A stretch of 58,431 bases of DNA, filler included, from Jimgerdemannia flammicorona (lineage: Eukaryota): NCBI GenBank assembly GCA_003990765.1. It is 3 parts of 3 records of this genome, joined end to end, with 100 filler letters (N's around TTAATTAATTAA, not from the genome) between each part and the next. Parts side by side here need not be neighbours in the genome. Positions count along the whole stretch, not along the records: positions 39,026 to 58,431 come from RBNJ01001947.1; 2 more parts are not named here. One strand, written 5' to 3'. A program made the translations under genes and the position numbers. The first letter of the stretch is position 1, and each line of letters opens with the position of its first letter. Shown here one piece after another: positions 5,316 through 44,724 of the stretch. The notes below the pieces were generated by a model, which did no database searches, was not told the origin of the DNA, and saw nothing but the letters and a program-made list of their open reading frames with translations.

Positions 5316-5317
<2 letters not shown>

Positions 5318-5362
<45 letters not shown>

Positions 5363-6420: not shown

Positions 6421-7422
6421 TAAATAGATACAATTTATCCAGATAAGATTTAATTCAGATTTGTCATATGATAGATTCAAATTAACTCAGATTGATCTAG
6501 ATTAATCCAGATTACTTAAAATCTTTGGTAATATATATCATCCTTTCTTTATCTTTAGTGATATTATTCTTTTTTTGTTTTCTCTTTCTTTATTCTCTCT
6601 TTCTTATTCTTTTTTTCTTTATTCTCTTTAATGCTTCTTTTTATTTCTCTTATTACATTATGAATAAATAAATAGCAGTCCTTAATCATATATTAGTCTA
6701 CTCATTTTTTTATCTAATAATCATTAAAAAAAAAAATATTTGAGATGGGAATGTACTCTCTACTAATAATGTTAAATTCTTTCTCATATAGACAGCATAC
6801 AAACTACTCATTGAGAGCCAAAATAGTAATGGTAATAGTAATAATAATAATGATAGTGATGAGAATGAGAGAGAATTTTGACAGTAACTTATGATAATTC
6901 TTCAGACCTCAGAATTCATAGACCTCATAGCTATATATATAGTAGTCTTTTTAGAGCAGCTGATAGTAGATATAGATTGTCTTTTCACTACTATATTTAA
7001 ATTCCCACAGTATGACCAAGCTCATTTTGTACTGTTTCTCTTTTTCTTATAGTCTACAGCTCTATAACAAGATCTATTGACTTTATTTATAACATCTAGT
7101 CAAGATAAAGAAAGACTAGAGAATATTGTAAAGTATATCTTTAGTGGCTGAGCTGTTAAGTCAATGTATTGTATAGTAGAGATCTCAAAAAGATCAAAAG
7201 TAAGCCTTTATGAGCAATTTTGTACAACTCATTTATATATAACTCATCTGTATATAACTCATTCTCATGCTCTTTTCTAAATACTTACTCTATATTTTAT
7301 TTAACTTTATTTTTATATATTCTTCTCTAAAAACTCTCAAATAATACTTACATATAATCTATTCATATACTTAACTTGGCCCACTACACAGATCAAGACT
7401 CAGTTTTACTATAGAGGAGAAT

Positions 7423-9346
7423 TATAAGTACATAACCTCCAAGCCACTGAAATCACATGTGACCTCTGAACAAATCTGGAAACCATCTGCTTGATCATGA
7501 AGCTGAGTCAAACCAAAGTCACAGTATACAAAGCTGAGTCAATATGAAGTTACAGAACACAAGATTCACATAAATGGAATCTTACCAATTAGGACCAAAT
7601 ATATATATACTGAGCACTGAGATGCATCAAAACAGAGAACCAAAATAAATAACAACCACAACTCCCAACATACAAACATAACCACTGAGATCTACAACTG
7701 TATCTGTACTGATATTTGGAATGCTATTGTCAACCGAGCCATACCCCCTCTACCCCTCATGAATATCCATAGTCTAGCACCTCTTTACTTTATAAAAGCC
7801 TGATAGAATACTCTGAACATGCTTAACAAGGTCCACCAAATTGGACAAATCTCAAGCTACTATCAGATCAGCCGCCTCCTGGAAGATTTAGTTGAACATC
7901 ATCATGATACAGATATTACTCAGATGTCTCAACATCAGAAGCTCATCACCTGCAAACATCGAGAACTCTTCTATAAGTATAGCACTGTTATTCCCCACCT
8001 CCAAGTTACTATAGCTGAAATGGTTGCTATCCTGTCCTATTGCCAAATCGATGACATGATACAAGAACTCAACCACAAGTATCTTGAGTATATTAAAACC
8101 ACAGACAGAACCTTCCCACACCCCAATGATCATATCCTACAAATGCCCCAAGTTGGATATACCATGAAGGACATCTATAATATAATCCACTTCGATGAAG
8201 ATAAAGCAGAAGACAATGATCCCTCCAACACCAACATGACCCCAAGCCAAGGATCCCTGCCAACACTAATTATACCATCAATCTTGTCAATGAACTTATA
8301 ATAGTTCATAACCACATACAAGACTTATTGGGACAATGACTACTAGTATGAATACCAACCTGCATTCACCCCCAATTACTTTAACTAGAATGAAGAGACC
8401 GGAGAATACAACCTATACCTCCAGACAACCCTTGAGATTGAACCAACCTATCCACCACTCAAATATGAGCAATATGAACTATAGCCACCAGCTTACTATA
8501 ACCCCATAACTAATAGTACTGTAACCTATAGAAGACGAAGTTCCAATGTATTATTATCTCAGTGAACAAGGAGAAGTAATCCATGAACCACTCTTCCTAG
8601 ATGACTACTTCATCAGAGATGATACAATCAATGGTGATATCATCGAGAACTATCCAGACAGTGTCTAAACCTATAAATAGCCTAGCAGTCATAGTATAGT
8701 TAGATTAGCCTTGTACGACATGACTGTGAACTGACTCAGCAGTCAGACGATCTCTTAATATGTCAGATCACACTTGTACTATATGATTGCATTCTGACTC
8801 AGCAAAGCACTTAAGTGCTATATTCATATCTAGCATAGTCCAGATAGCCCCCCACTAGTATAAATACCCTCTCCCCCAGACCTCAGAATCTCAGACTTGA
8901 ACACTTGAACAATCCAAACACAACTCCTGAGCACTTCTCTACAAATATCTCTTCACATAACTACTCCTAATATAGCAATATCATGAATAGCAAATAAACC
9001 TATTTAATAACCCACAAAACTACTCTTAAGTAAATCTACTCCCCATTAGGTCCCACTCCTAACCCCATTACGAAATCTCCTAATTGGGTATTGTCTGCAG
9101 CAATATGCCAATTCAACTAAGCTGATCTTAGTTTTTTGAACTTCCTGAAATATGAAAAATCCTGAACATCCAGAACTAGTCTGAAAAAGGACTTTGGTTG
9201 AGACATCAACTCAATCTTGAAATCAATAAGCATAGAGGATGTACTCCATATGAAATTGATCTTGACCATAAGAAAACAGTCTTCCAGAATATCCAGAACT
9301 TCCCCAGAACTACATAATGGTTACCCTGAAAAACAACCCTCTTACA
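7423..9346 (+). repeat. 5' LTR of copy A; contains degenerate LTR-ORF 7678-8668
   Basis: Starts TATAAG (mutated TGTAAG) and ends CTTACA, followed by ACTTGGTAG (PBS-like TGG). TATAAA at 8859-8864, AATAAA at ~8993. Aligns with 17089-19031. Confidence 0.9.
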
Positions 9347-11372
9347 ACTTGGTAGTAGTAGTTTACAATCCAATTCTGCTTCAAGACACTTCCTCACCCT
9401 GCTACAAATCCCTCTGTGAATTCCTACAAGTTGGTATAAAGCCCAACCTCTGAACTGGAATTTATCTTGAACTATCTGACAATCTGGAGAGAATTGAACC
9501 TAACGTACAAGGACAATTTGACCTCCATACTTGCAACAAGTGAGACAAACTTCATTCAAAGAAAGAAGTACTCTGATTAAATCAGCAAATAGGCAAAACC
9601 CTATTCACTGAACTCCTTACACTACACCCAGCAAGTCAAGATGAAGAAGGTCTTATTGAAGCCTTCTTTACTCTTCTCAACAAGAGTTTTGTTAGCTCTA
9701 CAAATCTGAGTGACCTAGGACAACCAGCAGCAGTCTTTCTAGCCTTAGTTCCTCATGAAGCCCAAGCCTCTGTAGCCAAGTGGCTCAACTCTACTGACTT
9801 TTACCATACCAGGACCAAGACCGCATTATACTACCGATTCCAGAACAGCAAGACCTGCTATATTCTTAAAGAAGAAGCAAGAGAAACTCTTCATCAACTA
9901 CCTGACCCAAACCTAAAGCAGGCCCTGCTACAGCCCTACCTGAATCTGAAACCAATACTGAACCTGAACTTGACTTTGAATTAAGTCCATCTGAAATCAG
10001 ATATATAACTGATTTCATCTACTTCAATGCCAAGCAAACCCAATTACACAGGGACCAAACCGAAGAAGAGGAGGAGTATCTCAGTGAATTCAATCCCAGA
10101 TATACTACTGAAGGAGAAGTACCTCTATCAGGACAGAATACACCTACATAGCAACAAACAGTTATCTATCAAGCTCTCACTCCAGACCTACAACTACTAC
10201 TCCAGCAACTTATACAGACCCAAAGAACCCCATCACACTCTGTACTAGTACCTCAAGTAGTACCAGTAACACCACTACCAGCAGTCCAACTGCCTCCAGT
10301 AAACAATATGGCAAACCAACAGATTCTTGATCTTACAGCCCAAGTAGCTATAATGGCAGCAACCATTACTGCATTAGCTGAACAGACCCGACCCACCAAA
10401 AATCTGAGCCTACCTACCTTCAATGATACTGCACAAGAAGTCCAAAGCTTCATTAGTGTAGTTGATACCAACTTTGAAGCCAATCAATGGACCAATGAGT
10501 GAGTTGCTGACCACATTCTGACAAACAATCAAGACCACACTCTGGAACAACTCTTTGCTATCACTACAGCCTATGTTCACTGAGTTATTACATTCTTCCA
10601 AGGACCTGCCGAAGAATGGTGGTGAACCCTTCCTGAAAAACCCCTTACATGGGATACTTGACCTACAGTAGTTACTCAGAATGCAGCAAACAATACCTCA
10701 GGATATGGAGCCCATCCTGCAGCCCCTAGACTCAAACAACTCATGATTGCTCAATACTGCAGTGAAACCATGATTGCTGAATCTCGAGTAAAACTCTGCA
10801 ACCTCAAATTTGATATATATGGCAAAGAAGAATTTGAAACCTTCTGTACAAAACTCGAGTTACTCCTGAACACTGTTGGCCTAGGATATATCACCAATGA
10901 TGAAGCATGAAATGGTATAAGAGCAGACCATTTATTTGATGCCCTGCCTGAATGGCTTACTAGAAAAATCCGAGAACAAGGCCACCCAGTTGGTTGTGAT
11001 CACCAATAATGGTGCCTGACAAGAATCAAGACTATGGTCAAGTGAATCCTAACAGCTGGACCAATGCTGCCCCAAAGACAATTCAATAACAAGGAAAAGA
11101 CTTGGACCAAGAAAGAAGAACCCAAGCATGAAGCATCCCAAGCTCCCTCCATATCCACCTCTTGGACACCTAGAAATCATGAACCCACCCAGCCAAGCAC
11201 CTTCAAAAAACTCACTGAAGGCAAAAGGAATGAACTTCGAAGAAGTGGAGCATATTTCTATTGTCAAAAGACAGGACATATAGCCAGTGCCTGCCCTAAC
11301 TGAAAACCCCAAACAGCAATACAAGCAACTGTTACCACTCTGCACCACCTCAACAACCTGACCACCAGAACA

Positions 11373-11780
11373 CTGGACTTTGTCAAGTTAAGACAAACTG
11401 CTAAGACCCCAATCAAAGGAAGTCAAAAAGCAGCTGAATATGACCTGTATGCAGCCAAAGAAGCTACAGTTTCCAACCGAGAAGTCAAACAAGTCTATAT
11501 AGGAATCAGTATCCAAATTCCTGAAGGACATGTTGGAAGAATATACTGTCGCAGTAGCCTAGCATTAAAAGGACTCTCAGTAGAAAGAAGAGTTATCGAC
11601 AAAGATTACACAGGTGAAATTATTGTCCTTATCCGAAACCATAGTTGAACACCCTTCAAGATCCCTATAGGTTTCTGCATTGCCCAGATTCTATTTGAAA
11701 AAATCGAGTCAACTCTGATAGTCAAGGAAGTCCCTGAACTACTGCTTACTATCCAAGGATCCAAAGGATTTGGCTCATTG
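11373..11780 (+). pseudogene. Trimeric dUTPase domain inside the polyprotein, between nucleocapsid zinc knuckle and protease
   Basis: All five dUTPase motifs are readable in the Gag frame: AAEYDL, CRSSLA, VIDKDYTGEI, IAQILF, GSKGFGS. Also present in copy B at ~24985-25395 (minus). Confidence 0.92.
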
Positions 11781-14309
11781 AACAAGGCCCCAGCCCAACC
11801 TATCATGAGCAAAGAAGAACAATTCTACAAGAAGATCGAAGACAGATATATACCAAGTAGCTGATGCCCTCATGGCATTGGGATATACTCTTCCTGAATG
11901 ATTGATGATTGCTTCTCTTGTGTCAATGAACTGGCTCAAAGAAGAACCAACAGAAGGAAAAGTCCTATAACTGAAATCACCACCATTGGATCAGACAAAC
12001 TACTTATACTTAAAGCTTTTATCAACCGAGCACCTGTCAAGATTATGATAGACAGTGGTGCCTTAGGCAACTTCATCAATGAAGAGATAGCTAACAGACT
12101 CAAGGTCTTCACCTCTCCAGTACAGCAAACTCAAGCAGTTGCTACAGCTGATGAAACCTCACATGTTATTAGCAAAGAAGTCTGCAATCTACCCTTCTGA
12201 ATTGGCGACTACCGAGTATATGTTACCCTCCAAATCATACCACTTCCTGACAATGAAATCATCCTTGGGACTCCATGGTTAAAATAAGAGAACCCCATGA
12301 TTGATTGGATAAACCATTCTCTGACCATCAAGAAAGGATGCCACAACTTCAAACTACAAGACAAAAAGGACCCACTTAATTCTAGTGACTCTGGACCAAA
12401 GATCACCTACATTAATAAGCTATAACTCAAGAAATTGGCCAAGAAATGCCCTCTCTTTGCCATCACCATCCATCCATCCAAAGGAAAACCTGAGAACTCT
12501 GAAGAAGACTTTTTCAAAGTTGATAGCCATGTCAGACCACTACTCCAGAAATTCCGAGACATATTCCCAAAGAAACTCCCAAAAGGCCTACCTCCTAAAT
12601 GAGCAGTAGACCATACCATTAAGACTATCCCAGTACCAAACCAGCCTTCAAGTCAATCTACCACATGTCTCCAAGAGAAATCGATGCACTCAAGAAAGAA
12701 ATTGATGAACTCCTAGAACAAGGATTCATTAGACCCAGTGTATCACCTTATAGTGCACCAGTCCTATTTATTGTCAAGAAAGGAGGAGACCTGTGAATAT
12801 GTATTGACTACCATGATCTCAATGAACAGACCATCAAGAACTATTGCCCACTACTAAGAATCGATGAAATATTTGATAGACTTACCAACCCACAATTCAT
12901 GAGCTCCTTTGACCTGCGAAATGGTTACTGACAAATTGCCATGAAAGAAGAAGACATCTACAAGACAGCCTTCTGAACTTGCTATGGACATTTCGAGTTC
13001 CTGGTTATGCCCTTTGGCTTAACTAATACTTCTGTAACCTTCCAGACCCTAATGAATACTATCCTGCACTCATACCTGGACAAATTCATGGTTGTCTACA
13101 TTGATGACATCCTAGTCTTCAGCAAAACCCTGGAGGAATATCTTGAACACCTTGAACTAGTACTACTGAAACTCCGAGAAAACCAACTCTTTGCAAAACT
13201 CAGCAAGTGCGAATTTCTCTTGAAAGAAATTCAATTCCTTGGACACATTGTCACTCCAAATAGAATCAAAGTAGACCCCAGCAAAATCTCTCAAATCAAA
13301 GATTGGCCCAGATCCAAGAAGCTGAAAGACCTCCAGTCATTCCTGAGATTAGCAAACTATTACAGGCAATTTGTTGCCAACTTTGCTAAAATTGCTACTG
13401 CTCTCACCCAAATGACCAAGCATAGCAAGAAACAAGAACAACTCTGGACCATGAAATAAGAGAAAGACTTCAACAATCTTATAATCTGGGGACCTGAGCA
13501 AGACACCACCTTTCAAGCACTAAAGGATGCCTTGATAACCACTCCAGTACTTCAAGCAGCAAATCCTGCCCTACCATATGAAGTCACTACTAATGCCTCT
13601 GACCTAGCCCTTGGAGCAGTACTCATGCAAGAAGGACACCCTGTGGCCTGTCACTCCCACAAGTTCAATGATGCTGAAATTAACTATATAATCTATGAGA
13701 AGGAAATGCTAGCCATCATAGACACTCTGATCAAATGGTGACCATATCTAGAAGGAGTATACTTTACTATATTGACTGACCACAAGTTATTAGTCAACAT
13801 CAAGACACAGGCTACCCTTTCTCGAAAGCAAGTCAGATGGATGAAAGTCCTCACCAACTTTGACTATGAAATCCAGTATCACCCTGGTAAGGAAAATATT
13901 GTTACCAATGCAATCTCCAGACCACCCATTGAAGAAGTTATCCAAACTCTCACCTTGATTACCAATACTATCATGGAGCAAATTATTGCAGTATATACTG
14001 ATGATAAGGAAGCTCAAGCACTCTGAGAAATCCTGAATAGGATGATGTTGACAAATGTACACAGTATCACCAATATCAACTGAAGGACAATGCTATCTAC
14101 TACAAGAACAGACTGTATGTTCCAAACAACCAAGACTTCTGAAGGACTATCCTATTTGAATGTCATGATGCCCCTATAGCTGGATATTTAGGATTCGATA
14201 AATGTTATGAAGTTATCTCCTGAAACTTCTATTGGCCCCATATGGCAGATCAGCTCAAAACCTACATCACTTCCTGTGATGCCTACCAATGAAATAAGTC
14301 CTCAATACT

Positions 14310-15520
14310 TTTTTTTTTTTTTTTTTTTTTTTTAATGGACTCAAGTCCCGTGGATTTTATTGGAAGGGAACCTAGACTATATAGGCCAAAACCCTCCCCC
14401 ACCACCCACCGAACAATATCCCCCTATTAACCTAGGCTACGAAACTGTCCAGCAGTCCCACCGCTCCAGCTATGCCTGTCGAACACCGGCTACGTCGACC
14501 CCAACGACATAGACTAGACTTGTCTGCTCACTAGGGCTGGATCATCGTTTACACGTGAGAGCACACCTACACGTCAGATCTAGCAGCGCCGGGACTGAAT
14601 TAAGAATAGCCCCCCGAACCCCAAAAGAAAGCCCGAGGCAAAGAAAAAAACCCCCCAACCAACCAACAGAGAGCAAAGTAGATTCAAAGCGGGTGAGTAA
14701 AGGACTTATATGCAGCACCTTCCTCAAAGGACTTACACATGGGCTAGGGCCCGAAGAGACTCCACTCCCACTCCCTGAGCCTGCGGGCCTCGATCACGTT
14801 GCCGTGTCAGCTCCCAGTTCCAGTCGGGTACTGCCAAATGAGGAAGGTTCCACTCCCTAAGCCTGTGGGCCTCGATCACGTTGCCATGTCAGCTCCCAGT
14901 TCCAGTTGGGTACAGCCAGGATGCTGGCCCCTGCACCACCCCACCCCCCATCAGCCAATCAAAAGGCCCCACCGAAATATTGTCTGCCCCAACCCCGATG
15001 ACCGCCCCCAGCCTGGCACCCCACTGGTTCACCATAATCGCCCTTCCTCCTATCTGTGATGGCCATCTCCCCTCCCAACCCGACATCACCCAAAAAGCAG
15101 TCACCTACGCCAGAACTGCGCTCGCCGGGAAGCTCGCCAAAGCCAGAGGGCCCCACTACAGGCACCGAGGACCTGCAGGTAACCTACACTGAGCACTTGA
15201 CGCCCAAGGTCGGCCGACTCCCTACGTAGCCCGAGATACACCGAGACAGCACCTTGTTGACAACGGCAAAAGGAAGAAGGCGCCGCACCAAAATGGATAC
15301 ACTCCAGACGCAGCCAAAGACACCAGAAACCGCGAAAAAATGGAGAAGACACCGATCTGACACCGATAAAGGGGCAACTCATCACCATTGCCCTCCTTCC
15401 ACCATGCCCATGCAGGCACAGCAAACCAACCTGAGGTAGAGGGGGTAATAATAGGGGAAAGGGGACTCGGAAGGTCGCCTACCAAACCTTGTGACTGGTA
15501 AGGTAGCGGAGAAAGGAGCG
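14310..15520 (-). mobile_element. 1.2-kb poly(A)-tailed non-LTR retroelement fragment inserted in the integrase of copy A
   Basis: 16-bp TSD ATAAGTCCTCAATACT at 14294-14309 and 15521-15536; T-run at the left end; AATAAA on the minus strand before the tail; GC/CpG-richer than its host. Confidence 0.92.
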
Positions 15521-17070
15521 ATAAGTCCTCAATACTAGCAAAACCCAGCTTACTTCACCCTATCTCAGTACCATCTGCAAATTGGGAATAAATCTCTATA
15601 GACTTTATTGTACAACTACTCCAAACCAAGAACAGGAAAGATGCAATTGTTGTCTTTGTAGATTATCTAAGCAAACAAGCCCACTTTGTACCTACTACCA
15701 CTACTGTAACAGCACCAAACATAGCCACACTCTTATTTGACAATATCTTCCACTATCATGGTCTTCCTAAGATCATTGTTAGCAACTGAGACCTGAAATT
15801 CACCAGTCATTTTTGAAAAGCCCTCCATGCACACCTTGGAACAAAACTTGCACTATTCACAGTCTTTCACTCTGAAACTGATGGCCAAACTGAAAGAATG
15901 AACCGAACTCTAGAATAAATGCTAAGGAACTATGTTTCCTATAGATAAGATAATTAGCATGAACACCTGACTGCAGTTGAGTTTGCTTATAATAACAGCA
16001 AGCAAGCCTCTCTCGGAATGATCCTATTCTTTGCCAACATTGGACAAAACCCAAACACCCCTTTGACACTTATCTGAACCACTGAAGAACTCTCCACAGT
16101 TGAAGCTATTGAAGAATTCCTACTCTGAATGTGCAATCTAAGCCAGATTGCAATTGAAAATTTATCATGAGCTCAAGAACAACAGTCACAGTATGTTAAC
16201 CAACACTGCTGAGAAGAAATCTTTGATATTGGAGAAAAAGTTCTACTGGACATCAGAGGATACTGAGTTGACAACCTCAAGTACAGACCATCTACAAAGC
16301 TGAACAGCAAGTTCATTGGACTATTTGAAGTCATCGCACAAGTCTCTTCTACCTCCTACAAACTGGTGCTACCAGATACTATTAAGATTCACCCAGTCTT
16401 TAATGTCCAATGTCTCAAGTGATATAATGAGAATGATGACAAGCTATTTCCAAACCAGACTACCCAACCATCTGTACCTGTCATTATTAATAACCACAAG
16501 GAATACAAAGTTGAACAAATCCTCAATAAATGTGGCCACAAGAACTACCCTGAGTACCTTGTGAAATAGAAAGGTTATCCAATCCATGATGCAATCTGGG
16601 AACCTAAGACCAATCTCTAGAATACTACTGACCTAGTTCAGGAATATGATTCCTTGAACAACTAAAACCAAATACTCAGTACCTATCTGTACATACTATA
16701 TATTATCCTCCCGAACACTATAATTATCAAAAGAATCAAGAACTTAGCAAAACAAGACAAGAATACTAACCCTCTAGAAAAAATAGCAAAACTGAAAGCC
16801 AGTCTATTCTCCCCATACCACTGTAGGGAAACAAGGCATAGACATTAAGAAGATTCCATAGAGGAAATTCTCCAGCAGTGAATGATGTCAGAATCACTTC
16901 CAGCATACAGCATTGAACATATGACCCTTTAATGTATGAATCCAACACATTAGGCAACTGTACTATAAGCATGCCACTTTCTGAAAAAATGGACTTTACT
17001 GGACTTTTGATCTCCCAAATGGTGTAACAACACTAGAACAAAATTAGAAGGCCCCGACGAAGATGTCAAA

Positions 17071-17088
17071 AGCTAAGAAGGGGAGAGT
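17071..17088 (+). other. Polypurine tract of copy A
   Basis: AGCTAAGAAGGGGAGAGT directly precedes TGTAAG of the 3' LTR; mirrored in copy B at 20991-21008. Confidence 0.85.
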
Positions 17089-19031
17089 TGTAAGTGCACA
17101 ACCTCCAAGCCACTGAAATCACATATCACTCTCTGAACAAGCCACTGAAATCACACATGACCTTTGAACAAATCTGGAAACCACCTGCTTGATCATGAAG
17201 CTGAGTCAAATCGAAGTCATAGTGTACAAAGCTGAGTCAATATGAAGTCACAGAACACAAGATTCATATAAATGAAATCTTATCAATCAGGACCAAATGT
17301 ATATATACTGAGCACTGAGATGCGTCGAAACAGAGAACCAAAACAAATAACAACTACAACTCCCAACACACAAACATGACCACTGAGATCTACAACTATA
17401 TCTGTGCTGACATTTGGAATACCATTGTCAACCGAGCCACACCCCCTCTACCCCTCATGAATATCCATAGCCTAGCACCCCTTTACTTCGTGGAAGCCTG
17501 ATGGAATGCTCTGAACATGCTTAACAAGGCCCATCAGATTGGACAAATCTCAAGCTACTATCAGATCAGCTGCCTCCTGGAAGATATGGTTGAACATCAT
17601 CATGATATAGATATTACTCAGATGTCTCAACACTAGAAGCTCATTACTTGCAAACATTAAGAACTCTTCTATGAGTATAGCACCATTATTTTCTGCCTCC
17701 AAGTTACTACAGCTGAAATGGTTGCTACCCTGTCCTATGGCCAAATTGACAACATGATACAAGAACTCAACCACAAGTACCTTGAGTATATCAAAACCAC
17801 AGAGAGAACCTTCCTACACCCCAATGATCATATCCTACAAATGCCCCAAGTTAGATATGCCATGAAGAATATCTACGATATAATCTACTTCGATGAAGAT
17901 GAAGCAGAAGACAATGATCCCTCTGACACCAACATGACCCCAAGCCAAGGATCCCTGCCAATACTAATTATACTACCAACCTTGCCAATGAACTTACAAT
18001 AGTTCATAACCACATATGAGACTTATTGAGACAATTACCACTGGCATGAATACCAATCCACATTTACCTCTAATTACTTTAACTATAATGAAAAGACCAG
18101 AGAACACAATCTGTACCTCCAGACAACTCTTGAGATTGAACCAACCACTCCATAACCTGAATATGAGCAATATAAACTACAGCCACCAGCTTACTACAAC
18201 CCCACAACTCATAGTGCTGTAACCTATAGAAGATGAAGTTCCAATGTATTATTATCTCAGTGAACAAGGAGAAATAATCCACGAACCACTCTTCCTAGAT
18301 GACTACTTTATCAGAGATGATGCAATCGATGGTGATGTCATTGAGAACTATCCAGACAGCACCTAAACCTATAAATAGCCTAGCAGTCATAGTATAGTTA
18401 GATTAGCCTTATACAATATGACTGTGAACTGACTCAGCAGTCAGACAATCTCTTGACATGTCAGATCACACTTGTACTATGTGACTACATTCTGACTCAG
18501 CAAAGCACTTAAGTGCTATATCCATATCTAGCATAGTCCAGATAGCCCCCCACTAGTATAAATACCCCCTCCCCCAGACCTCAGAATCTCAGACTTGAAT
18601 ACTTGAACAATCCAAATATAACTCCTGAGCACTTCCCCACAAATATCTCTTTACACAACTACTCCTAGTATAGCAATATCATAAATAGCGAATAAACCTA
18701 TTTAATAACCCACAAAACTACTCTTAAGTAAATCTGCTCTCTGTTAGGTCCCACTCCTAACCCCATCATGAAATCTCCTAATTGGGTATTGTTTGCAGTG
18801 ATATGCCAATTCAACTAAGCTGATCTTAGTTTCTTAAACTTCCTGAAATACAGAAAATCCTGAACATTCAGAACTAGTCTGAAAAAGGACTTTGGTTGAG
18901 ATATCAACCCAATCTTGAAATCAATAAGCATAGAGGATGTATTCCATATGAAATTGATCTTGATCATAAGAAAACGATCTTCCAGAATATCCAGAACTTC
19001 CAGAAAATTCTTCCAGAACTACATAATGGTA
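17089..19031 (+). repeat. 3' LTR of copy A; contains degenerate LTR-ORF 17376-18366
   Basis: Starts TGTAAGTGCACA and is collinear with 7423-9320; lacks the last ~25 nt present in the 5' LTR. Confidence 0.9.
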
Positions 19032-19687: not shown

Positions 19688-19689
<2 letters not shown>

Positions 19690-22600
19690 TGAAGTAGTCA
19701 TCTAGAAAGAGTGGTTCTTGAATTACTTCTCTCTGTTTACTTAGGTAATAATATATTGGAATTATGTCACTATCCTACAGGATGATATCATCTGTTTCAT
19801 ATGCTGGATATGGAGTTGGCAGGTAAAGGGGAGGTACATCATCTTCACTTTCATCAGATTCACTATCTGCATATCTTCTATAGGTAACAGTGCTATAAGT
19901 TGTGAAGTTATAGTATGCTAGTAGCTATTGCTTATTTCATTCATACTTAAGAGGTAGGGTTGTTGGTTTGATCTTGAGGGTTGTCTGGAGATATAGCTTA
20001 TATTCTCTAGTCTCTTCATCATAGTTAAAGTAATCAGATATAATTGCAGATTGATACTTATACTAATAGTCAATATCCAATAGGTCTCATAGGTGATTAT
20101 GAACTATTGTAAGTTTATTGACAAGTTGGTGGATGATCAAGGTTGGCAGGGATCCTTGACTGGAGGTCATATTGGTATCAGAGAGATCATTATCTTCTGC
20201 TTTATCATTATTGAACTGGATTATATCTTAGATATCCTTTATAGTATATCTAACTTAGGATATTTGCAGGATATAGTCATCAGGATATAGAAAGGTTCTG
20301 TCTGTGGTTTAAACATACTAAATATACTTGTGTTGAGTTCTTATACCATATCATCAATTTGGCCATAAGATAGGGTAGCAACCATTTCAGCAGTAGTAAC
20401 TCAGAGAGGGGTAATAAAGATACTATATTTATAGAAGAGTTCTTGGTATTTGTAGGCAATAAGTTTCTGGTGTTGTGATATCTGGATAATATCTATATTA
20501 TAGTGGTGTTCAACTATATCTTCTAAAAGGTGGCTGATCTGATAGTAGCTTAAGATTTGTCTGATTTGGTAGACTTAAGTATGTTCAGAGTATTCTATCG
20601 GACTTCCACAAAGTAGAGAGATACCAGGCTATGGATATTCATGAGAGATAGAGAAGGTGTGGCTCAGTTGACAATGGTATTCCAAATATCAATATATATG
20701 TAGTTGTAGATCTTAGTGGTCATAGTTGTATATATGTTTAAGAGTTGTGATTATTTGTTTAGTTTATTGTGGTTTTCTGTTTTGATGCATCTGAGTACTC
20801 AATATATATGTATTCAGTTCTAATTAGTAAGATTCTGTTTATATAAATCTTATATTCCATGACTTTAAGTTGACTCAGATTTGTGCTCTGTGACATCAGT
20901 TTGACTCAGCTTTATGATCTTGTATATAATTTCTGAATTTATTCAGAGGGTGACATGTGATTTTAGTGGCTTAGTGGTTGTGCACTTATAACTCTCCCCT
21001 TTTTAGCTTTTGACATCCTCATTGAGGTCTTCTAATTTTGGTCTAGTGTTGTTACACTGTTTGGATGATCAAAAGTCTAGTAATGTCTATTTTCCTGAGA
21101 AAGTGGTATGCTTGTAGTATAGTTGCCTAATATATTAGATTTATATATTAAAGAGTTATATATTCAATACCATATACTGGAGGTGATTCTGACATCATTT
21201 ACTGCTGAAGAATTTCCTCTAAGGAATCTTCTTAAATATCTATGCCTTATTTCCCACCAGTAGTATGGAGAGAATAGGCTTTCTTTCAGTTTTGTTATTT
21301 TTCTAGAGGGTCAGTATTCTTTCATCTTGACTTGCAGAGTTCTTGATTTCATTCATTATAATTATAAGAGTACTTAATATTCAAGAAGAGTAATATATAT
21401 TATAGGCTAATAGATACTGGAGTATTCAGTTTTCAGTTATTCAAAGAATCATATTCATGAATAAGATCAGTAGCATTCTGGAGATTAGTCTTGGATTTCC
21501 ATATTATATCATGGATTTGATAATCTTTCTATTTGACAAAGTACTCTAGATAGTCCTTGTGACCATATTTATTAAGAATTTGCTCAACTTTGTATTCTTC
21601 TTAGTCATTAATAATGATAGATACAGGTAGTTCTGTAGTTTAGTTTAGGAATAGCTCATCATCATTTTCGTTATATTGCTTAAGATGTTGTATATTAAAG
21701 ACTAGGTGAATCTTAATAGCACCAATTTGTAAGAAGTTGGAGAGACTTGTGTGATGACTTCAAATAGTCTAATAAATTTGATATTTAGCTTATAGATGGT
21801 CTATATTTGAGGTTGTCAACTCAGTATCCTGATGTCTAGTAGAACTTTATCTCTAATATCAAAAGTTTCTTCTTAGTAGTGTTGGTTGATATACTATAAC
21901 TGTTGTTCTTATGCTCAGAATAAATTCTCAATTGCAATCTGACTTAGATTCTATATTCAGAGTAAGAATTCTTCAACAGCTTCAACTATAGAGGATTCAT
22001 CAGTAGTTCTGATAAGTATCAGAGAGATATTTGGGGTTTGTTCTATGTTAGTAAAGAATAGAGTCATTCCAAGAGAGACTTCCTTACTATTATTGTAGGT
22101 AAACTTGACTATGGTAAAGAATTTATACCAATTATCTTATCTATAGAAAATATAGTTCCCTAGTATTTGCTCCAGAGTTTGGTTCATTCTTTCAGTTTAA
22201 CTATCAGTTTTAGAGTAAAAGGCTATAGATAGTATATATTTTATTCTAAGGTATACATGTAGGGCTTTTCAAAAGTGGCTGGTGAACTTCAGATCTCAGT
22301 TACTAACAATAATCTTGGGAAGACCATGATAGTGAAAAATATTGTCAAACAAGAGTTTAATGATGTCTAGTACTGTTACAGTAGTATTATTTGGTATAAA
22401 ATATATTTGTTTGCTGGGATAGTCTATGAAGACAATAATTGTATCTTTCCCATTCTTTGTTTAGAAAGTTGTTTAATAAAATCCATAGAGATTTGTTCCC
22501 AATTAGCAGATGATACTTGGATAGAGTAGAGTAGGCCAAGTTTGCTAGAGTTAAGGACTTGTTATATTGACAGGTATTATAGGAAGTTACATTGATCTTT

Positions 22601-25600: not shown

Positions 25601-28600
25601 TGTCCAAGAGGGAATGTAGAAGGAGCTTGAGATGCTTCATACTTGGGTTCTTCTTTTTTGGTCTAAGTTTTTTCCTTATTATTGAATTGTCTTTAAGGCA
25701 GAATTGGTCCAGCTGTTAGGATTTACTCAACTATAGTCTTGATTCTTACCAAGTACTATTGTTGGTGATCACAACCAACTAGGCATCCTTGTTCTTGGAT
25801 GTTTCTTATAAGGCATTCAGATAGTATATTGAATAAAATAGTCTGCTCTTGTACCATTTTATGCTTCATCATTGGTAACATATTCTAGGCCAATAGTGTT
25901 TAGGAGTAACTCAAGTTTTGTATAGAAGGTTTTGAATTCCTTCTTGCCATATATATCAAATTTGAGATTGCAGAGTTTAGCTTGAGATTTGGCAAACAGA
26001 GTTTCACTGTAGTATTGAGCAATCATGAGTTGTTTGAGTTCAGAGACTGCAGGATGGTTTCTATATCTAGAGGTATTATTTGCTTCATTTTGGATAATGA
26101 CTACAGGTCAGGTGTCTTATGTGAGAGGTTTTCAGGAAGGATTTAACACTATTCTTCATCAGGTCCTCAGAAGAATATAACAACTTAATAGATATAGGCT
26201 GTAGTAGTAGCAAAGAGTTGTTACAGAGTGTGGTCTTAATTGTTTGTCAGAAGGTGTTCAGCAACTTACTCATTGGTCCATTGGTTGGCTTTGAAGTTGA
26301 TATCAATTATACTAATAAAACTTTGAACTTCTTGTATATTACTATTGAAGGTAGGCAGGCTCAGACTTTTGGTTGATCAGATCTGTTCAGCTAAGATGGT
26401 AATGGTTGTTGCCATTATAACTACTTGGGCTGTGAGGTCTATAATTTGTTAGTTGGCTATATTATTTACTGGAGGCAGTTAGACTACTGGTAGTAGAGTT
26501 ACTAGTATTACTTGAGGTACTAGTGCAGAGTGTGATAGTGTTCTTTGAGTCTTTGTAAGTTGCTGGAGTAACTATTATATATCTGGAGTAAGGGTTTGGT
26601 AGATAGCTGTATATTGTGCTATAAGTATGTTTTGTTCTAAAGAGGGTGTGTCTTTTTCAGTATTATATCCAGGATTGAATTTACTGAGATACTCCTCCTC
26701 CTCTTTGATTTGGTCTCTATATAATTGAGTTTGTTCAGTATCAAAGTAGATTGTATTAGTTGTATATTGGATTTCAGATATGTAGACTTAATTCAAGAGT
26801 TTGATCTGGTTCAGTATTAGTTTTAGTTTCAGATAGGGCTGTAGCTAGGCCTACTTCTGATTCAGAGTCAGGTTGTTGATCAAGAGTTTCTCTGGCTTCT
26901 TCTTTAAGAATATAGCAGACCTTGCAATTTTGAAAGCAATAGTATAAAGTGGTCTTGATCCTGGTATAGTGATAGTCAGTAGAGTTGAGCCACTTGGCTA
27001 TAGAGGCTTAGGCTTCATAAGGAACTAAGGCTAGAAAGTTAGTTGCTGGTTATCCTAGGTTACTCAGATTTGTAGGGCTGACAAAACTCTTATTGAGAAG
27101 AGTAAAGAAGGTTTCTATGAGACCTTCTTCATCTTGACTTGTGAGGTGTAGAGTAAGAAGTTCAGTATATAGAGTTTTACCTATCTGTTGATTTAATTGT
27201 AGTCCATTTTTTTGTAGATAAAGTCTGTCTTACTTGTTGCAGATATAGAGGTCAAATTGTCCTTATATGTCAGGTTCAATTCTCTCCAGATTATCAGATA
27301 GTTTGGAATGAGTTCTAGTTCAGAGGTTGGATTTTATATCAACTTATAGAAATTATCATAGAGGTTTGTAGTAAGATGAGAAAGAATCTTGAAGTAGAAT
27401 TGGATTGTAAACTGCTGACACTAAGTTATAAGAGGATTACTTATAAAAGTACCAAAGTACAATTATATAGTTCTAAAAGGGTTTTCTAGAAGTTCTGGAT
27501 ATTTTGATATAGAGTATATCCTCTATACTTATTGATTTCAAGATCAGATTGAGGTCTCAACCCAAAGTCCATTTTTGAACTAGTTCTGGATGTTCAGAAT
27601 TTTCCATATTTCAGAAAGTTCAACAAACTAAGACCAGCATAGTTGAATTGGCATATCACTGCAGATAATATCCAATTAGAAAATTTCAACAGAGTTAGGA
27701 GTGAGATCTAATAGAGAGCAGATTTATTTAAAAGTAGTTTGTAAGTTATTAAATAAGTTTATTTGCTATTTATAATATTGCAATACAAGGAGTAGTTGTG
27801 TAAAGAGATTTTATAGAAAAGTATTCAGAAGTTGTTTTTATTATTTCAGTCTGAGTTTCTGAGGTCTGGGAAAGGGAATATTTATACTAATGGGAGGCTA
27901 TCTGGAATATGCTAAATATGGATATAGTACTTAGTGCCTTACTGAGTCAGAATACAGTTATGTAGTACAAGTGTAAACTGATATGTCTAGAAATTATCTG
28001 ACTGCTAAGTTAGTATGCAGTCACATCATATGAGGCTAACCTAACTATACTAATAACTACTAAGCTATCGATAGATTTATATACTATCTGGGTAGTCTTC
28101 GATGACATTACTATTAATGATATCATCTGTTTCATATATGGGATATGGAGTTGGTAGACAAAGAAGAGGTGTATTGGCTTCACTTTCATTAGATTCACTG
28201 TCTGCCCTTCTATAGGTAATAATGCTATAAGTTGTGGGATTATAGTATGCTGGTGGCTTTGGCTTATTTCATTCATATGCAGAAGATGGGGTTGTTGGTT
28301 CAATCTTGAGAGTTGTCTGAAGATACTGATAATATTCTCTAGTCTCTTCATTATAGTTGAAGTAATCAGATATGAGTATAGATTGATACTCATACTAGTG
28401 ATCATTATTCCAATAGATCATATAGGTGGTTATGAACTGTTGTAAGTTCATTGGCAAGGTTGGTAGAGTGATCAAGGTTGGCAGAGATCCTTGGCTAGAG
28501 GTCATATCAGTATCAGAGAGATCATTATCTTCTACTTCATTATTATCAAACTGAATTATATCATAGATATCCTTCATGATGTATCCAACTTGGAGCATTT

Positions 28601-29599
28601 GTAAAATATAGTCATTGGGGTGTGGAAAGGTTCTGTCTGTATTTTAAATATACTTAATATACTTGTAGTTGAGATCTTGTACCATATTGTCAATTTGGCT
28701 ATAGGACAGAGTAGTAACCCTTTCAGTGATAGTAACTTAGAGATAGAGAATAAAGGTACTATACTCATAGAAGAGTTCTCTGTATTTGCAGACAATGAGT
28801 TTCTGGTGTTGAGACATCTGGGTAATATCTATATTATGGTAGTGTTTGACCATATCTTCTAGAAGATGGCTGATCTGATAGTAGCTTGAGATTTGATCAA
28901 TTCAGTAGACTTCACTGAGTATGTTCAGGGCATTCCATTAGGCTTCCACAAAGTAGAGAGGTACCAGGCTGTTGTTATTCATGAGGGGTAGGAGAGGTGT
29001 GGCTCAGTTGACAATGGCATTCCAAATATCAGTACAGATATAGTTGTAGATCTTAGTGGTCATAGTTGTGTATATATTCAAGAGTTGTAATTGTTTGTTT
29101 AGTTTGTTGTGGTTTTCAGTTTCAATATATCTGAATGCTTGATATATATACATTTAGTTCTGATTTGTAAGGTTTTATTGGTATAAATTTTGTGTTCTAT
29201 GACTTTGAGTTGACTCAGCTTTGTACTCTATGACTAGTACTCTACAAACCCAACCCAATTAATCTGAAACCCTACCCATAAAACAGCCAACTCAGAATTA
29301 GATGTTACCTATCTTAACTCAACCCAGAATTATATGTTACCTGTCTTTAAGCTGACCTGGAATTATACATCACCCATCTTTAACCTGACCTGGAAAGATA
29401 CATTACCTATCTTTAATCCAATCTGGAATTAAATATAACCCATCTTTAACCCAATCTGAAAATGGATATCACCTGACTCATTATTTACTCTTAACCCAAA
29501 CCTGAACCTGACCCCTGAACCTGATCCTGAACCTGACCCCTGAACCTGACCCTGAACCTGATCCTCTGAACTCTGCTCTAAAAAAATGATTCAGATAAT

Positions 29600-38925: not shown

Positions 38926-39025
38926 NNNNNNNNNNNNNNNNNNNNNNNNNNNNNNNNNNNNNNNNNNNNTTAATTAATTAANNNNNNNNNNNNNNNNNNN
39001 NNNNNNNNNNNNNNNNNNNNNNNNN
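38926..39025. other. Artificial assembly spacer
   Basis: 100-nt N-run with a central TTAATTAATTAA. Confidence 0.95.
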
Positions 39026-40899
39026 ATGTTCAGGATTTTCTGTATTTCAGGAAGTTCAAGAAACTAAGACCAGCTTAGTTGAATTGGCGTATCGCTGCAG
39101 ACAATACCCAATTAGGAAATTTCGTGATGGGGTTAGGAGTAGGACCTAACAGAGAGCGGATTTACTTAAGAGTAGTTTGTGGGTTATGGAATAGGTTTAT
39201 TTGCTATTCATGATATTGCTATACTAGGAGTAGTTGTGTGAAGGAATATTGTGGAGAAGTATTCAGGAATGTTCTTGTGTGTTTGAGTCTGAGATTCTGA
39301 GGTCTGGGGGAGGGGGTATTTATACTAGTGAGGGGCTATCTGGACTATGCTAAATATGGATGTAGCACTAAGTGCCTTGCTGAGTCGGAATGCAGTCACG
39401 TAGTACAAGTGTGATCTGATATGTCAAGAGATCGTCTGACTGCTGAGTCAGTTCACAGTCACGTCGTACAAGGCTAATCTAACTATACTATGACTGCTAG
39501 GCTATTTATAGTTTTAGGCGCTGTCTGGGTAGTCTTCGATGACATCACCATCGATTGCATCATCTCTGATAAAGTAGTCATCTAGGAAGAGTGGTTCACG
39601 GATTACTTCTCCTTGTTGGCTGAGGTAGTAATATATTGGGACTTCATCTCCATCCCACAGGATAGCATCGTCTGTTTCATATACTGGATAAGGTGTTGGT
39701 GGGCGAAGGATAGGTGTACTGTCTTCACTTTCATCGGATTCACTATCTGCGTACCTTCTATAGGTTACAGCACTATGAGTCGCGGGGTTGTAGTAAGCTG
39801 GCGGCTGTGATTCAAGTTGCTTATACTCGGGTGGTGGAGTGGTTGGTTCAATCTCGAGGGTTGTCTGAAGGTACAGGTTGTGTTCTCCGGTCTCTTCATT
39901 GTAATTGAAGTAATCAGGGGTAAATGCAGGTTGGTATTTGTGCCAGTGGTCATTGTCCCAATAAGTCTCGTATGTTGTTATGAACTGTTGTAAGTTCATC
40001 GGCAAGGTTGGCGGAGTGATCAGGGTTGGTAGAGATCCTTGACTAGAGGTCATGTCAGCATCAGAGGGATCATTGTCTTCTGCTTCATCTTCATCGAAGT
40101 GGATTATATCATAGACGTCCTTCATAGCATATCCGACTTGAGGCATTTGCAGGATGTGGTCATCAGGGTGCGGGAAGGTTCTGTCTGTGGTTTCGACATA
40201 CTCGAGGTATTTGTGGTTGATTTCTTGTATCATGTCGTCGATTTGGCCGTAAGACAGGGTAGCAACCATTTCACTGGTAGTAACTCGGAGGCGGGGAATA
40301 AAGGTGTTGTACTCATAGAAGAGTTCTCGATGTTTGCGGGCGATGAGCTTCTGGTGTTGAGACATCTGGGTCATATCTGTATCGTGGTGGTGTTCGATCA
40401 TGTCTTCCAAGAGGTGGCCGATCTGGTAGTAGCTTGAGATTTGTCTGATTCGGTGGGCCTCACTAAGCATGTTCAGGGCATTCCATCGGGCTTCCACGAA
40501 GTAGAGGGGGGCCAGGCTATAGATATTCATGAGGGGCAGAGGGGGTGTAGCTCAGTTGACAATGGCATTACAAATGTCAGCGCGGATGCAGTTGTAGATC
40601 TCAGTAGTCATATTTGTATGTTTGGAAGTTGTGGTTGTTGTTTGTTTTGGTTCTCTGATTCGACGCATCTTGGTGCTCAGTATATATGCATTTGGTCCTG
40701 ATTGGTAATATTCCATTTGTGTAGATCTTGTGTTCTGTGACTTCGTATTGACTCAGCTTTGTGCACTGTGACTTCGGTTTGACTCAGCTTCATGATCAAG
40801 CAGGTGATTTCTAGATTTATTCGGAGGTCGTGTGTGATTTCAGTAGCTTGTTCAGAGGGTGACATGTAATTTCGGTGGCTTGGGGGTTGTGCGCTTACA
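39026..40899 (-). mobile_element. Least-mutated LTR of the chromovirus family (copy C; solo or 5' LTR, cut by the gap)
   Basis: Minus strand begins TGTAAGCGCACAACCCCC at 40899 with no PPT upstream; collinear with the other LTRs; retains many CpGs. Confidence 0.92.
39514..40611 (-). CDS. LTR-encoded protein of unknown function: 338 aa open (39514-40530), 365 aa from ATG 40611 once one CGA>TGA is repaired
   Basis: Long ORF wholly inside the LTR. Both copy A LTRs have CGA at the single upstream stop, and the ATG (MTTEIYN..) is present at 17376, 20723, 29063 and 40611. Confidence 0.8.
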
Positions 40900-44692: not shown

Positions 44693-44724
44693 TCCACTCT
44701 CCCCCCTGCCGAACACTGAGCAGG

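What the first reader, a model, noticed from the sequence alone, without database searches (positions are those of the whole stretch)
39514..40611. A ~365-aa gene encoded entirely within the LTR, present in all five LTR copies
Seen: 338 open codons in copy C and collinear remnants at 7678-8668, 17376-18366, 19688-20723 and 28077-29063. The ORF fills over half of the LTR and lies upstream of the main TATA and poly(A) signals (U3). The protein has a helical-looking N-terminal half and a D/E- and aromatic-rich C-terminal half, with no signal peptide or TM helix, so it is not env-like. Known: LTR-overlapping genes occur in complex retroviruses (MMTV sag, HIV nef, foamy virus bel region) but are not a standard feature of fungal Ty3/gypsy elements. 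Inference: a transactivator or anti-silencing factor that is duplicated at every transposition and survives in solo LTRs.
Basis: partly seen in the sequence, partly recalled or inferred. Interest (0 to 1): 0.85.

Follow-up and report, generated by a model that had tools for sequence, protein, structure and literature searches.

The report
Protein gene inside a retrotransposon's LTR
A Ty3/gypsy-type retrotransposon carries a real, selection-maintained 365-codon protein gene wholly inside its long terminal repeat, an arrangement known from a few complex retroviruses; the protein resembles nothing known and its function is still open.

Summary
The window has five copies of a ~1.9-kb LTR from a Ty3/gypsy chromovirus (gag-dUTPase-PR-RT-RNaseH-IN-chromodomain; PPT; 5-bp TSD). 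Each carries the same sense-strand frame, starting 288 nt into the LTR and ending 190 nt before the TATAAATAC box. Copy C (40611..39514, minus) has 365 codons with one TGA at codon 20, and 338 open codons from an inner ATG. The other four copies are decayed.

It is a real coding sequence. Changes that arose before insertion (shared by both LTRs of an element, or private to C) give N38:S63, with 67 of 101 at third codon positions. Changes private to one LTR of a pair give N75:S36, spread evenly (Fisher p=1.7e-5; p=3.7e-6 without CpG transitions). Only this frame shows the full pattern.

Two open relatives exist among about 15 billion proteins. One is 66% identical over 247 aa, with in-frame indels and the same end. 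The other is 92% identical, starts at the same Met and reads Arg at C's stop.

No family, fold or solved-structure match was found. The protein is acidic (pI 4.3), has no TM segment, and has a helical N-terminus.

Expression and function are untested, so the transactivator idea remains a guess. The closest analogue by position is MMTV sag. I rate it a new variant of a known kind.

The parts
39514..40611 (-). LTR-embedded ORF, copy C: 365 codons plus TAA. There is one in-frame TGA at codon 20 (40552-40554). 338 codons are open from the inner ATG at 40530.
   Evidence: P0002 starts at the same Met and reads Arg at codon 20
39026..40899 (-). LTR copy C. The 5' end TGTAAG is at 40899. The 3' part (U5) is cut by the contig-join spacer at 38926-39025. 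It is the least decayed copy (CpG o/e 0.65).
7423..9322 (+). 5' LTR of element E1. ORF remnant at 7678-8668.
17089..19031 (+). 3' LTR of element E1. ORF remnant at 17376-18366. PPT AAGAAGGGGAGAG at 17075-17087, just upstream.
9323..17088 (+). Internal region of E1, decayed: gag with CCHC knuckle, dUTPase (~11400-11777), PR, RT, RNase H, IN zinc domain, SH3, chromodomain (~16504-16650). It is interrupted by a 1.21-kb poly(A) retroposon at 14310-15520.
7418..7422 (.). Target-site duplication AGAAT of E1. The second copy is at 19032-19036.
28077..29063 (-). ORF remnant in the 5' LTR of element E2. It lacks about 108 nt between two DDAI-coding repeats.
19688..20723 (-). ORF remnant in the 3' LTR of element E2. 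It has 13 stops and four small frameshifts, and its 3' end is cut off by a poly(A) retroposon insertion.
40680..40786 (-). Candidate ORF promoter inside the 5' part of U3. It has two TGAGTCA (bZIP/AP-1/Gcn4-type) sites at 40780-40786 and 40749-40755, and ATATATAC ending at 40680, 76 nt before the ATG. The ATATATA core is kept in all five copies.
   Evidence: promoter function is inferred, not shown
39196..39450 (-). Main LTR promoter and terminator downstream of the ORF: TGACTCA site (39444-39450), TATAAATAC (39316-39324) and AATAAA (39196-39201).
   Evidence: the U3/R boundary is inferred
39648..39754 (-). A 107-nt stretch of the ORF that is missing from both E1 LTRs. Its ends read GT..AG, and the junction puts a stop straight after ..YRR.

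Best explanation
The ORF is a genuine protein-coding accessory gene of a Ty3/gypsy chromovirus. It sits downstream of the polypurine tract and upstream of the LTR's main TATA box, that is, in U3. Because of that position it is copied into both LTRs at every transposition.

Shown:
- It lies inside true LTRs.
- It was under purifying selection at the protein level while the family diversified, and it decays neutrally after insertion.
- Open, diverged copies exist in other assemblies.
- The protein belongs to no known family.

Inferred (position):
- On the genomic RNA it would be the 3'-most cistron, more than 7 kb from the cap. It therefore needs its own mRNA.

Inferred (expression):
- The likelier route is an LTR-internal promoter (two conserved TGAGTCA sites and an ATATATA box 76 nt before the ATG) together with the LTR's own AATAAA. 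Each LTR would then be a self-contained transcription unit.
- The alternative is a spliced subgenomic RNA, as for the ORF3s of other LTR elements.

Inferred (function):
- The product is a 365-aa acidic protein with a helical N-terminal ~120 aa and an aromatic, acidic, Pro-rich remainder. It most likely acts in trans as a regulator or adaptor for the element, for example on LTR transcription or on host control.
- I give the specific 'transcriptional activator' reading about 0.2. The confidence given below is for 'real, selected, element-encoded protein gene in U3'.
For: 1. LTR status. The repeats flank gag-dUTPase-PR-RT-RH-IN-chromo. There is a PPT and a 5-bp TSD. The E1 LTR pair is 90.65% identical.

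2. Selection, tested over 280 codons in 5 copies. Changes shared by both LTRs of an element or private to C give N38:S63, at codon positions 1/2/3 = 26/8/67. Changes private to one LTR of a pair give N75:S36, at positions 35/35/41. Odds ratio 0.29, Fisher p=1.7e-5. Of the other five frames, four show no deficit of N. The antisense frame that shares the wobble sites shows a weaker deficit.

3. The signal survives filtering. Without CpG-context transitions it is N23:S49 against N62:S28, p=3.7e-6. With no C/T or G/A changes at all it is N8:S9 against N15:S4, p=0.08.

4. Per-site rates. Pre-insertion changes run at 0.092/0.028/0.242 for codon positions 1/2/3. Post-insertion changes run at 0.127/0.124/0.146.

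5. Homologue P0001 (247 aa, from a 998-bp contig) is 66% identical and 84% similar. It has two in-frame 2-residue gaps and the same C-terminal end.

6. Homologue P0002 (128 aa, from a 1180-bp contig) is 92% identical. It starts at the same Met as the 365-codon frame and has Arg where C has TGA.

7. Decay moves copies away from P0001. Its identity falls from 65.6% with C to 61%, 58%, 55.6% and 44% with the older copies.

8. Variants in other runs. 19 of the 40 best-supported variants that one search listed for other copies (runs X1, X2, X13 and X20 laid) fall inside the ORF. Of these, 12 are at third positions (binomial p=0.007) and 11 are synonymous. A further 271 variants were not shown by the tool.

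9. ORF length is 345 codons stop-to-stop, against a maximum of 232 in 1000 simulations.

10. TGASTCA occurs 25 times in the window, against 10.2 +/- 3.1 in shuffles. 17 of the 25 lie in the LTR copies, at fixed places before and after the ORF.
Against: - There is no evidence of transcription or translation. No listed run is on record as RNA.
- Both LTRs of E1 carry a 107-nt frame-breaking deletion in the ORF. At least one element therefore transposed with a truncated gene, so the gene is not needed in cis.
- The pre-insertion class includes 3 stop-creating changes: 2 shared by the E2 LTR pair and 1 shared by the E1 pair. These may be parallel hits at the same sites.
- The best copy in the window has a stop at codon 20.
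- Only two relatives were found among about 15 billion proteins. DNA of relatives could not be fetched. It therefore remains unknown whether homologues are always LTR-bound.
- No confident structure was obtained (pLDDT 32.4, 51.3).
- The selection test uses parsimony on only three lineages.
Confidence: 0.75

Rival explanations
1. Passenger sequence. A host gene or a piece of another mobile element was captured into U3 of an ancestor and is simply carried along. It has no role in the element's own life cycle, and any selection acts for the passenger's own function.
For: - The E1 progenitor transposed with a frame-broken ORF, so the gene is dispensable in cis.
- LTR retrotransposons are known to capture extra ORFs (PMC5408684: abstract and passages seen).
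Against: - No host or other homologue was found outside this LTR family. There was nothing at E<=0.01 beyond P0001 and P0002 in near, shorter and longer length classes. The exhaustive search listed two further hits at E<=0.001, P0003 and P0004, but both are multi-stretch repeat proteins and I read them as chance.
- Inside the window, tblastn finds the ORF only in the five LTR copies.
- The purifying-selection signal is measured between element lineages, that is, after any capture. The frame also stays open at 66% identity.
Confidence: 0.1
2. The gene is real but lies in R, not U3. The element's true start site would be the upstream ATATATA box (40687). The ORF would then be the first cistron of the genomic RNA, an 'ORF0' before gag within a very long R. 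It would be duplicated because R is part of the LTR.
For: An upstream TATA-like box and two bZIP-type sites are conserved in all five copies, 76-175 nt before the ATG.
Against: - A stronger TATAAATAC box, with its own pair of TGACTCA sites, lies 190 nt after the stop. AATAAA follows 123 nt later. This gives an ordinary short R.
- A transcript started upstream in the 5' LTR would meet that poly(A) signal about 1.5 kb from its cap, before reaching gag.
Confidence: 0.08
3. Not a gene. The frame is open by chance or is preserved by DNA- or RNA-level constraints of the LTR, such as enhancers or RNA structure.
For: - No family, fold or expression evidence.
- Four of the five copies are full of stops.
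Against: - The substitution pattern has a three-base period and is specific to one frame.
- Third positions change 4-6 times faster than the flanking non-coding LTR parts on the same branches. The E1-pair plus C-only rate is 0.042-0.067 per site outside the ORF, against 0.242 at third positions. That is the opposite of a DNA-level constraint.
- ORF length exceeds all 1000 simulations.
- A 66%-identical relative is still open, with in-frame gaps.
Confidence: 0.04

Closest known systems
MMTV sag (superantigen ORF in the U3 of the mouse mammary tumor virus LTR)
   Same: Both are long sense ORFs of about 320-365 codons, contained wholly in the U3 part of an unusually long LTR and therefore present in both LTRs. 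[quoted passage not shown] Both sit 3' of the PPT, so each needs its own mRNA.
   Different: There is no sequence relation (0 Pfam families at E<=10). Sag is a type II membrane glycoprotein (recalled); this protein has no hydrophobic segment. The host element here is a Ty3/gypsy chromovirus, not a retrovirus with env.
HIV/SIV nef and foamy-virus bel/tas/bet genes (3' accessory genes that run into U3)
   Same: These are accessory genes at the 3' end that overlap U3. [quoted passage not shown] Foamy viruses drive these genes from an internal promoter, and Tas is a transactivator with an acidic activation domain (recalled, not checked here). That is the model behind the proposed internal promoter.
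   Different: Those genes only partly overlap the LTR and start upstream of the PPT; this one lies entirely inside. There is no sequence similarity.
Additional ORFs (ORF3 / aORF) of LTR retrotransposons, e.g. bdelloid Vesta/Juno ORF3s, env-like ORFs of Athila and errantiviruses, and the 'add. ORF' in fungal chromoviruses
   Same: These are family-specific extra genes of unknown or varied function, added to gag-pol and usually expressed from spliced messages (PMC5408684, passages seen). [quoted passage not shown]
   Different: ORF3 is described as lying downstream of the pol gene (PMC5408684). That it sits before the 3' LTR, and so is present once per element, is my recollection. Here the ORF lies after the PPT, inside the LTR, so there are two copies per element and one per solo LTR. 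No TM segment or other env-like feature is present.

Membership tests
Ty3/gypsy chromovirus (host element) | Domain order PR-RT-RNaseH-IN, with a chromodomain at the IN C-terminus | tested here: met
   RVP_2/Asp protease, RVT_1 (1.3e-26), RT_RNaseH (2.8e-27), Integrase_H2C2 (2.8e-14), SH3_Tf2-1 (2.3e-13) and Chromo (7.1e-09), in that order along 9300-17200 on the plus strand. dUTPase (6.8e-27) lies before PR.
Ty3/gypsy chromovirus (host element) | Direct long terminal repeats, with a PPT before the 3' LTR and a short target-site duplication | tested here: met
   LTRs at 7423-9322 and 17089-19031 (90.65% identical); PPT at 17075-17087; TSD AGAAT at 7418-7422 and 19032-19036. The termini read TG..TA rather than TG..CA. 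No clear tRNA-type PBS was identified.
MMTV Sag-like LTR superantigen | ORF contained in the U3 of the LTR | tested here: met
   The ORF starts 288 nt after the LTR 5' end and stops 190 nt before TATAAATAC. The U3/R boundary is inferred from motifs only.
MMTV Sag-like LTR superantigen | Sequence membership (Pfam MMTV_SAg) and a type II membrane anchor | tested here: not met
   0 Pfam families at E<=10. Maximum Kyte-Doolittle 19-residue window is 0.49.
env-like ORF3 of LTR retroelements | Location between pol and the PPT/3' LTR; signal peptide or TM segments | tested here: not met
   The ORF lies downstream of the PPT, inside the LTR. No hydrophobic segment.
Retroelement transactivators (Tas/Tax/Tat-like) | Sequence homology to a known transactivator family | tested here: not met
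   Pfam: none. PDB sequences: none at E<=1. Atlas: no usable hit.
Retroelement transactivators (Tas/Tax/Tat-like) | Activates its own LTR in trans | not testable with these tools
   Only composition is available: residues 146-338 have pI 4.05, with 43 D+E against 7 K+R and 26 aromatic residues.

The most novel reading that the evidence does not exclude
Each LTR of this family is an autonomous gene, made of an upstream bZIP-site/TATA promoter, a 365-codon ORF and the LTR's own poly(A) signal. Solo LTRs would then keep expressing the protein, and its dose would track the family's LTR copy number. The protein, a new fold-less or novel-fold acidic factor, would feed back on the downstream LTR promoter or on host silencing. 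That would give a Ty3/gypsy retrotransposon a retrovirus-style trans-regulatory circuit, or a copy-number sensor built into its terminal repeat.
Probability: 0.15. Interest if true: 0.85.

Novelty: new variant of a known kind. Interest (0 to 1): 0.62.

Why it matters
Genes placed inside U3 are treated as a hallmark of a few complex retroviruses (sag, nef, bel). LTRs of retrotransposons are normally annotated as non-coding, and LTR-finding pipelines mask them.

A selection-maintained 365-codon gene inside the LTR of a dUTPase-bearing chromovirus shows that 'simple' LTR retrotransposons can evolve the same arrangement. It adds an orphan protein family to the list of retroelement accessory genes. 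It also raises a testable question: do solo LTRs, usually seen as dead remnants or enhancers, remain protein-coding units?

The family is abundant in several soil-metagenome runs, so material for testing should exist.

Tried and rejected
- **Whole genome:** none is held for this window, so no genome-wide copy census was possible.
- **DNA of relatives:** two scans of metagenome contigs and one of viral contigs matched peptide patterns at 74, 339 and 187 places. None was confirmed by tblastn. The contexts of P0001 and P0002 are therefore unknown.
- **Protein searches:** the 'longer' length class gave nothing, and 'shorter' gave only P0002. P0003 and P0004 are multi-stretch repeat proteins (E 7e-5 and 6.5e-4) and I read them as chance.
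- **Family and structure searches:** Pfam found 0 families at E<=10. PDB sequences gave 0 hits at E<=1. The Atlas gave no usable feature hit. The Atlas's own model of P0001 has pLDDT 0.39, with best TM 0.30.
- **Structure prediction:** AF2 on the 338-aa protein with a 3-row alignment gave pLDDT 32.4. AF2 on P0002 alone gave pLDDT 51.3, all-helical. Both are too poor for a fold search, so none was run.
- **RNA runs on record:** no RNA holder is listed.
- **RNA-guess runs:** two runs guessed to be RNA (X13 and X20, contigs only) cover 39026-39285 at word depth of about 300-7000. They cover 39286-39545 at about 2-24, and have no cover over most of the ORF. The DNA runs stay level across these stretches. 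This would fit a start site just after TATAAATAC. However, there are loose ends and an indel at that spot, and the runs are of another organism label. It counts neither for nor against expression of the ORF.
- **No relevant joints:** one search showed no joint across the 107-nt stretch, nor any joint leading into the ORF.
- **Intron reading of the 107-nt E1 deletion:** the ends read GT..AG, but the 3' site is GAG and no CTRAY branch site precedes it. Two other placements of the cut fit equally well. The stretch is also coding and conserved in P0001. A microhomology deletion is equally likely.
- **PPxY motifs:** PPEY and PPAY in C are not kept in P0001, so I dropped them as a functional lead.
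- **Upstream ATG:** an in-frame ATG 19 codons upstream of 40611 in C is not kept in frame in the other copies.
- **Literature searches:** searches found no report of a conserved ORF inside the LTR of a fungal LTR retrotransposon. Additional file 1 of PMC2864245 and its Figure 3 were not seen and may bear on this.
- **Earlier findings of this scan:** nothing to show.
Full report
**What is in the window**

The 58,431-base window is three contigs joined by two artificial spacers (44 N, TTAATTAATTAA, 44 N) at 19416-19515 and 38926-39025. A ~1.9-kb repeat occurs five times:
- 7423-9322 and 17089-19031 on the plus strand (element E1; 90.65% identical over 1893 nt)
- about 27500-29235 and about 19688-20990 on the minus strand (element E2, about 82% identical)
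- 39026-40899 on the minus strand (copy C)

Reading the E1 interior with stops as X gives the following domains, in order: a gag with a CCHC knuckle, dUTPase (6.8e-27), aspartic protease, RVT_1 (1.3e-26), RNase H (2.8e-27), integrase H2C2 (2.8e-14), Tf2-type SH3 (2.3e-13) and a chromodomain (7.1e-09). This is a Ty3/gypsy chromovirus with a dUTPase.

A purine run, AAGAAGGGGAGAG, abuts the 3' LTR. E1 is flanked by the 5-bp duplication AGAAT. The repeats are therefore real LTRs.

Copy C has no PPT upstream, and the contig join cuts it inside U5. It is either a solo LTR or a 5' LTR; the window cannot say which.

**The ORF**

In copy C the minus strand has an ATG-started ORF of 338 codons at 40530..39514. 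The frame continues upstream to an ATG at 40611, with one TGA at codon 20. At that codon both E1 copies have CGA.

The ORF starts 288 nt after the LTR's first base. It ends 190 nt before TATAAATAC (39324), and AATAAA follows at 39201. It therefore fills 1098 nt of a 1900-1943-nt LTR and lies in what the motifs define as U3.

In those copies it has 7-13 stops in C's codon columns, and E2's 3' LTR has several small frameshifts.

The frame is longer than chance allows. The longest stop-to-stop frame is 345 codons, against a mean of 101 and a maximum of 232 in 1000 first-order Markov simulations of the LTR.

**Is it coding?**

The two LTRs of one element are identical at insertion. Differences private to one LTR of a pair are therefore post-insertion and neutral. 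Differences shared by both LTRs of an element, or private to C, arose mostly in the replicating lineage.

Over 280 codons aligned in all five copies:

| Class of change | N:S | Codon positions 1/2/3 |
|---|---|---|
| Pre-insertion (shared by a pair, or private to C) | 38:63 | 26/8/67 |
| Post-insertion (private to one LTR of a pair) | 75:36 | 35/35/41 |

- The odds ratio is 0.29 and Fisher p=1.7e-5.
- Of the five other frames, four show no deficit of non-synonymous change. The antisense frame that shares the wobble sites shows a weaker deficit, as expected.
- Dropping CpG-context transitions strengthens the result: 23:49 against 62:28, p=3.7e-6. Using only changes that are not C/T or G/A leaves few sites: 8:9 against 15:4, p=0.08.
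- Per site, pre-insertion change is 0.092/0.028/0.242 at codon positions 1/2/3. Post-insertion change is flat at 0.127/0.124/0.146.
- On the same branches the non-coding LTR parts change at only 0.042-0.067 per site. The fast third positions therefore rule out DNA-level conservation as the cause.
- Against this reading, three stop-creating changes fall in the shared class (two in the E2 pair, one in the E1 pair). They may be parallel hits at the same sites in both LTRs.

**Independent copies elsewhere**

Among about 5.8 billion clustered proteins (about 15 billion sequences), only two relatives were found:
- **P0001** (247 aa, on a 998-bp contig) is 66% identical and 84% similar to residues 88-337 of the 338-aa protein. 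It has two in-frame two-residue gaps and the same C-terminal end.
- **P0002** (128 aa, on a 1180-bp contig, named 'hypothetical protein' by its source) is 92% identical. It starts with the same Met as the 365-codon frame and has Arg where C has TGA.

P0001 is closest to C (65.6%) and progressively less like the older copies (61%, 58%, 55.6% and 44%). This fits decay away from a conserved protein.

Contigs of public runs laid on copy C show that the family is high-copy in soil-metagenome runs and in a coded organism. 3346 contigs were laid in X1, of which 1516 were at least 95% alike. Of the 40 best-supported variant sites that the tool listed, 19 lie in the ORF. Of these, 12 are third positions (binomial p=0.007) and 11 are synonymous. 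A further 271 sites were not shown.

**What the protein looks like**

- Composition of the 338-aa form: pI 4.3, with 63 D+E against 19 K+R.
- C-terminal part: residues 146-338 have pI 4.05, 22 Pro and 26 aromatic residues.
- No TM segment: no 19-residue window exceeds a Kyte-Doolittle value of 0.49.
- No family match: Pfam gave 0 families at E<=10 and PDB sequences gave 0 at E<=1.
- No Atlas lead: there was no usable hit.
- No confident fold: AF2 gave pLDDT 32.4 with the three-row alignment. For P0002 alone it gave 51.3, with five predicted helices in the first ~120 residues. The Atlas's own model of P0001 has pLDDT 0.39.
- Conserved blocks: long aromatic and acidic blocks are nevertheless conserved between C and P0001. 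The C-terminal part is therefore not free-drifting linker.

**How it probably works**

Shown: position, selection, and duplication with the LTR.

Inferred: the ORF lies after the PPT, so on genomic RNA it would be the last cistron. It needs its own message.

Two features favour an LTR-internal promoter:
- Two TGAGTCA sites lie at fixed positions 138-175 nt before the ATG. TGASTCA occurs 25 times in the window against 10.2 +/- 3.1 in shuffles, and 17 of the 25 are in the LTR copies.
- An ATATATA box lies 76 nt before the ATG and is kept in all five copies.

A second pair of TGACTCA sites and TATAAATAC follow the ORF and would drive the genomic RNA. AATAAA, 123 nt further on, would end both transcripts. 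If so, every LTR is a complete transcription unit.

A spliced subgenomic RNA, as described for the ORF3s of other LTR elements (PMC5408684, passages seen), is the alternative route.

What the protein does is open. The acidic, aromatic composition is compatible with an activation or adaptor domain, but that is composition only. I give the transactivator reading about 0.2.

Both E1 LTRs carry a 107-nt deletion that breaks the frame. The gene is therefore not required in cis for a round of transposition, which fits a trans-acting product.

**Comparison with what is known**

By position, the closest case is MMTV sag, an ORF inside a 1300-nt LTR. HIV/SIV nef reaches into half of U3, and a long ORF is reported in a foamy-virus LTR (PMC2664473, passages seen). 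None of these is related in sequence, and the membrane anchor of Sag (recalled) is absent here.

Extra ORFs of LTR retrotransposons are known. ORF3 is described as lying downstream of pol (PMC5408684); that it sits before the 3' LTR is my recollection. PMC2864245 lists an 'add. ORF' of unknown function in its Figure 3 legend and reports dUTPase domains in fungal chromoviruses. Its figure and supplementary table were not seen.

Three full-text searches turned up no conserved ORF inside the LTR of a fungal LTR retrotransposon. I therefore rate this a new variant of a known kind: a U3-embedded accessory gene in a chromovirus, coding for an orphan protein.

**Limits**

- No whole genome was held and no DNA of relatives was obtained.
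- No RNA evidence was obtained.
- The selection test rests on three lineages.
- The host is only inferred to be a fungus, from a flanking intron-bearing GH9 gene and from the element type.

Noticed in passing
window 19416-19515 and 38926-39025: Two identical artificial spacers (44 N, TTAATTAATTAA, 44 N) show that the window is three contigs joined together. Both joins fall inside LTR copies, as expected where an assembler breaks at repeats.
   Followed up: yes
window 14310-15520 (minus strand); also ~19516-19687: A 1.21-kb GC-rich retroposon with a poly(A) tail and a 16-bp target-site duplication (14294-14309 and 15521-15536) splits the integrase of E1. The same 3' end plus poly(A) interrupts the E2 3' LTR inside the ORF. 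This is a second, non-LTR family that inserts into the chromovirus.
   Followed up: partly
window ~11400-11777 (+): A dUTPase domain (Pfam 6.8e-27) lies between the gag zinc knuckle and the protease of the chromovirus. This rare feature has been reported from some fungal elements (PMC2864245).
   Followed up: partly
window 39648-39754 (-), missing in E1 at 8532/8533 and 18230/18231: Both E1 LTRs lack exactly 107 nt of the ORF. The ends of the missing stretch can be read as GT..AG, and the junction creates a stop straight after ..YRR. It is either loss of a spliced intron through an RNA copy or a microhomology deletion; this is unresolved.
   Followed up: partly
window 28077-28116 (E2 5' LTR): The E2 5' LTR lacks about 108 nt between two DDAI-coding direct repeats near the ORF's 3' end. 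Its partner LTR keeps them, so this is a post-insertion deletion, or one made during reverse transcription.
   Followed up: no
all five LTR copies: CpG observed/expected is 0.65 in copy C, 0.16-0.18 in E1 and 0.04-0.09 in E2. Most differences between copies are C/T or G/A transitions. Decay looks like methylation-type CpG loss, and it grades with age.
   Followed up: partly
window 46653-49546 (+): An intron-split glycoside hydrolase family 9 gene (four Pfam-matching exon frames) is followed by a long Ser/Thr/Gly-rich tandem-repeat tail. Upstream, at 44593-45939, is a Thr/Gly/Val/Ala repeat ORF with no Pfam match.
   Followed up: partly
window 53000-58431: This stretch has about 50% GC and an extreme GC skew (+0.37 to +0.59). 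It holds a non-LTR reverse-transcriptase fragment at 56360-56809. The cause of the skew was not examined.
   Followed up: no
E1 LTR ends, 9313-9322 and 19022-19031: The LTRs start with TG but end with ..GGTA or ..GGTT rather than CA. No tRNA-type primer-binding site was recognised after the 5' LTR.
   Followed up: no
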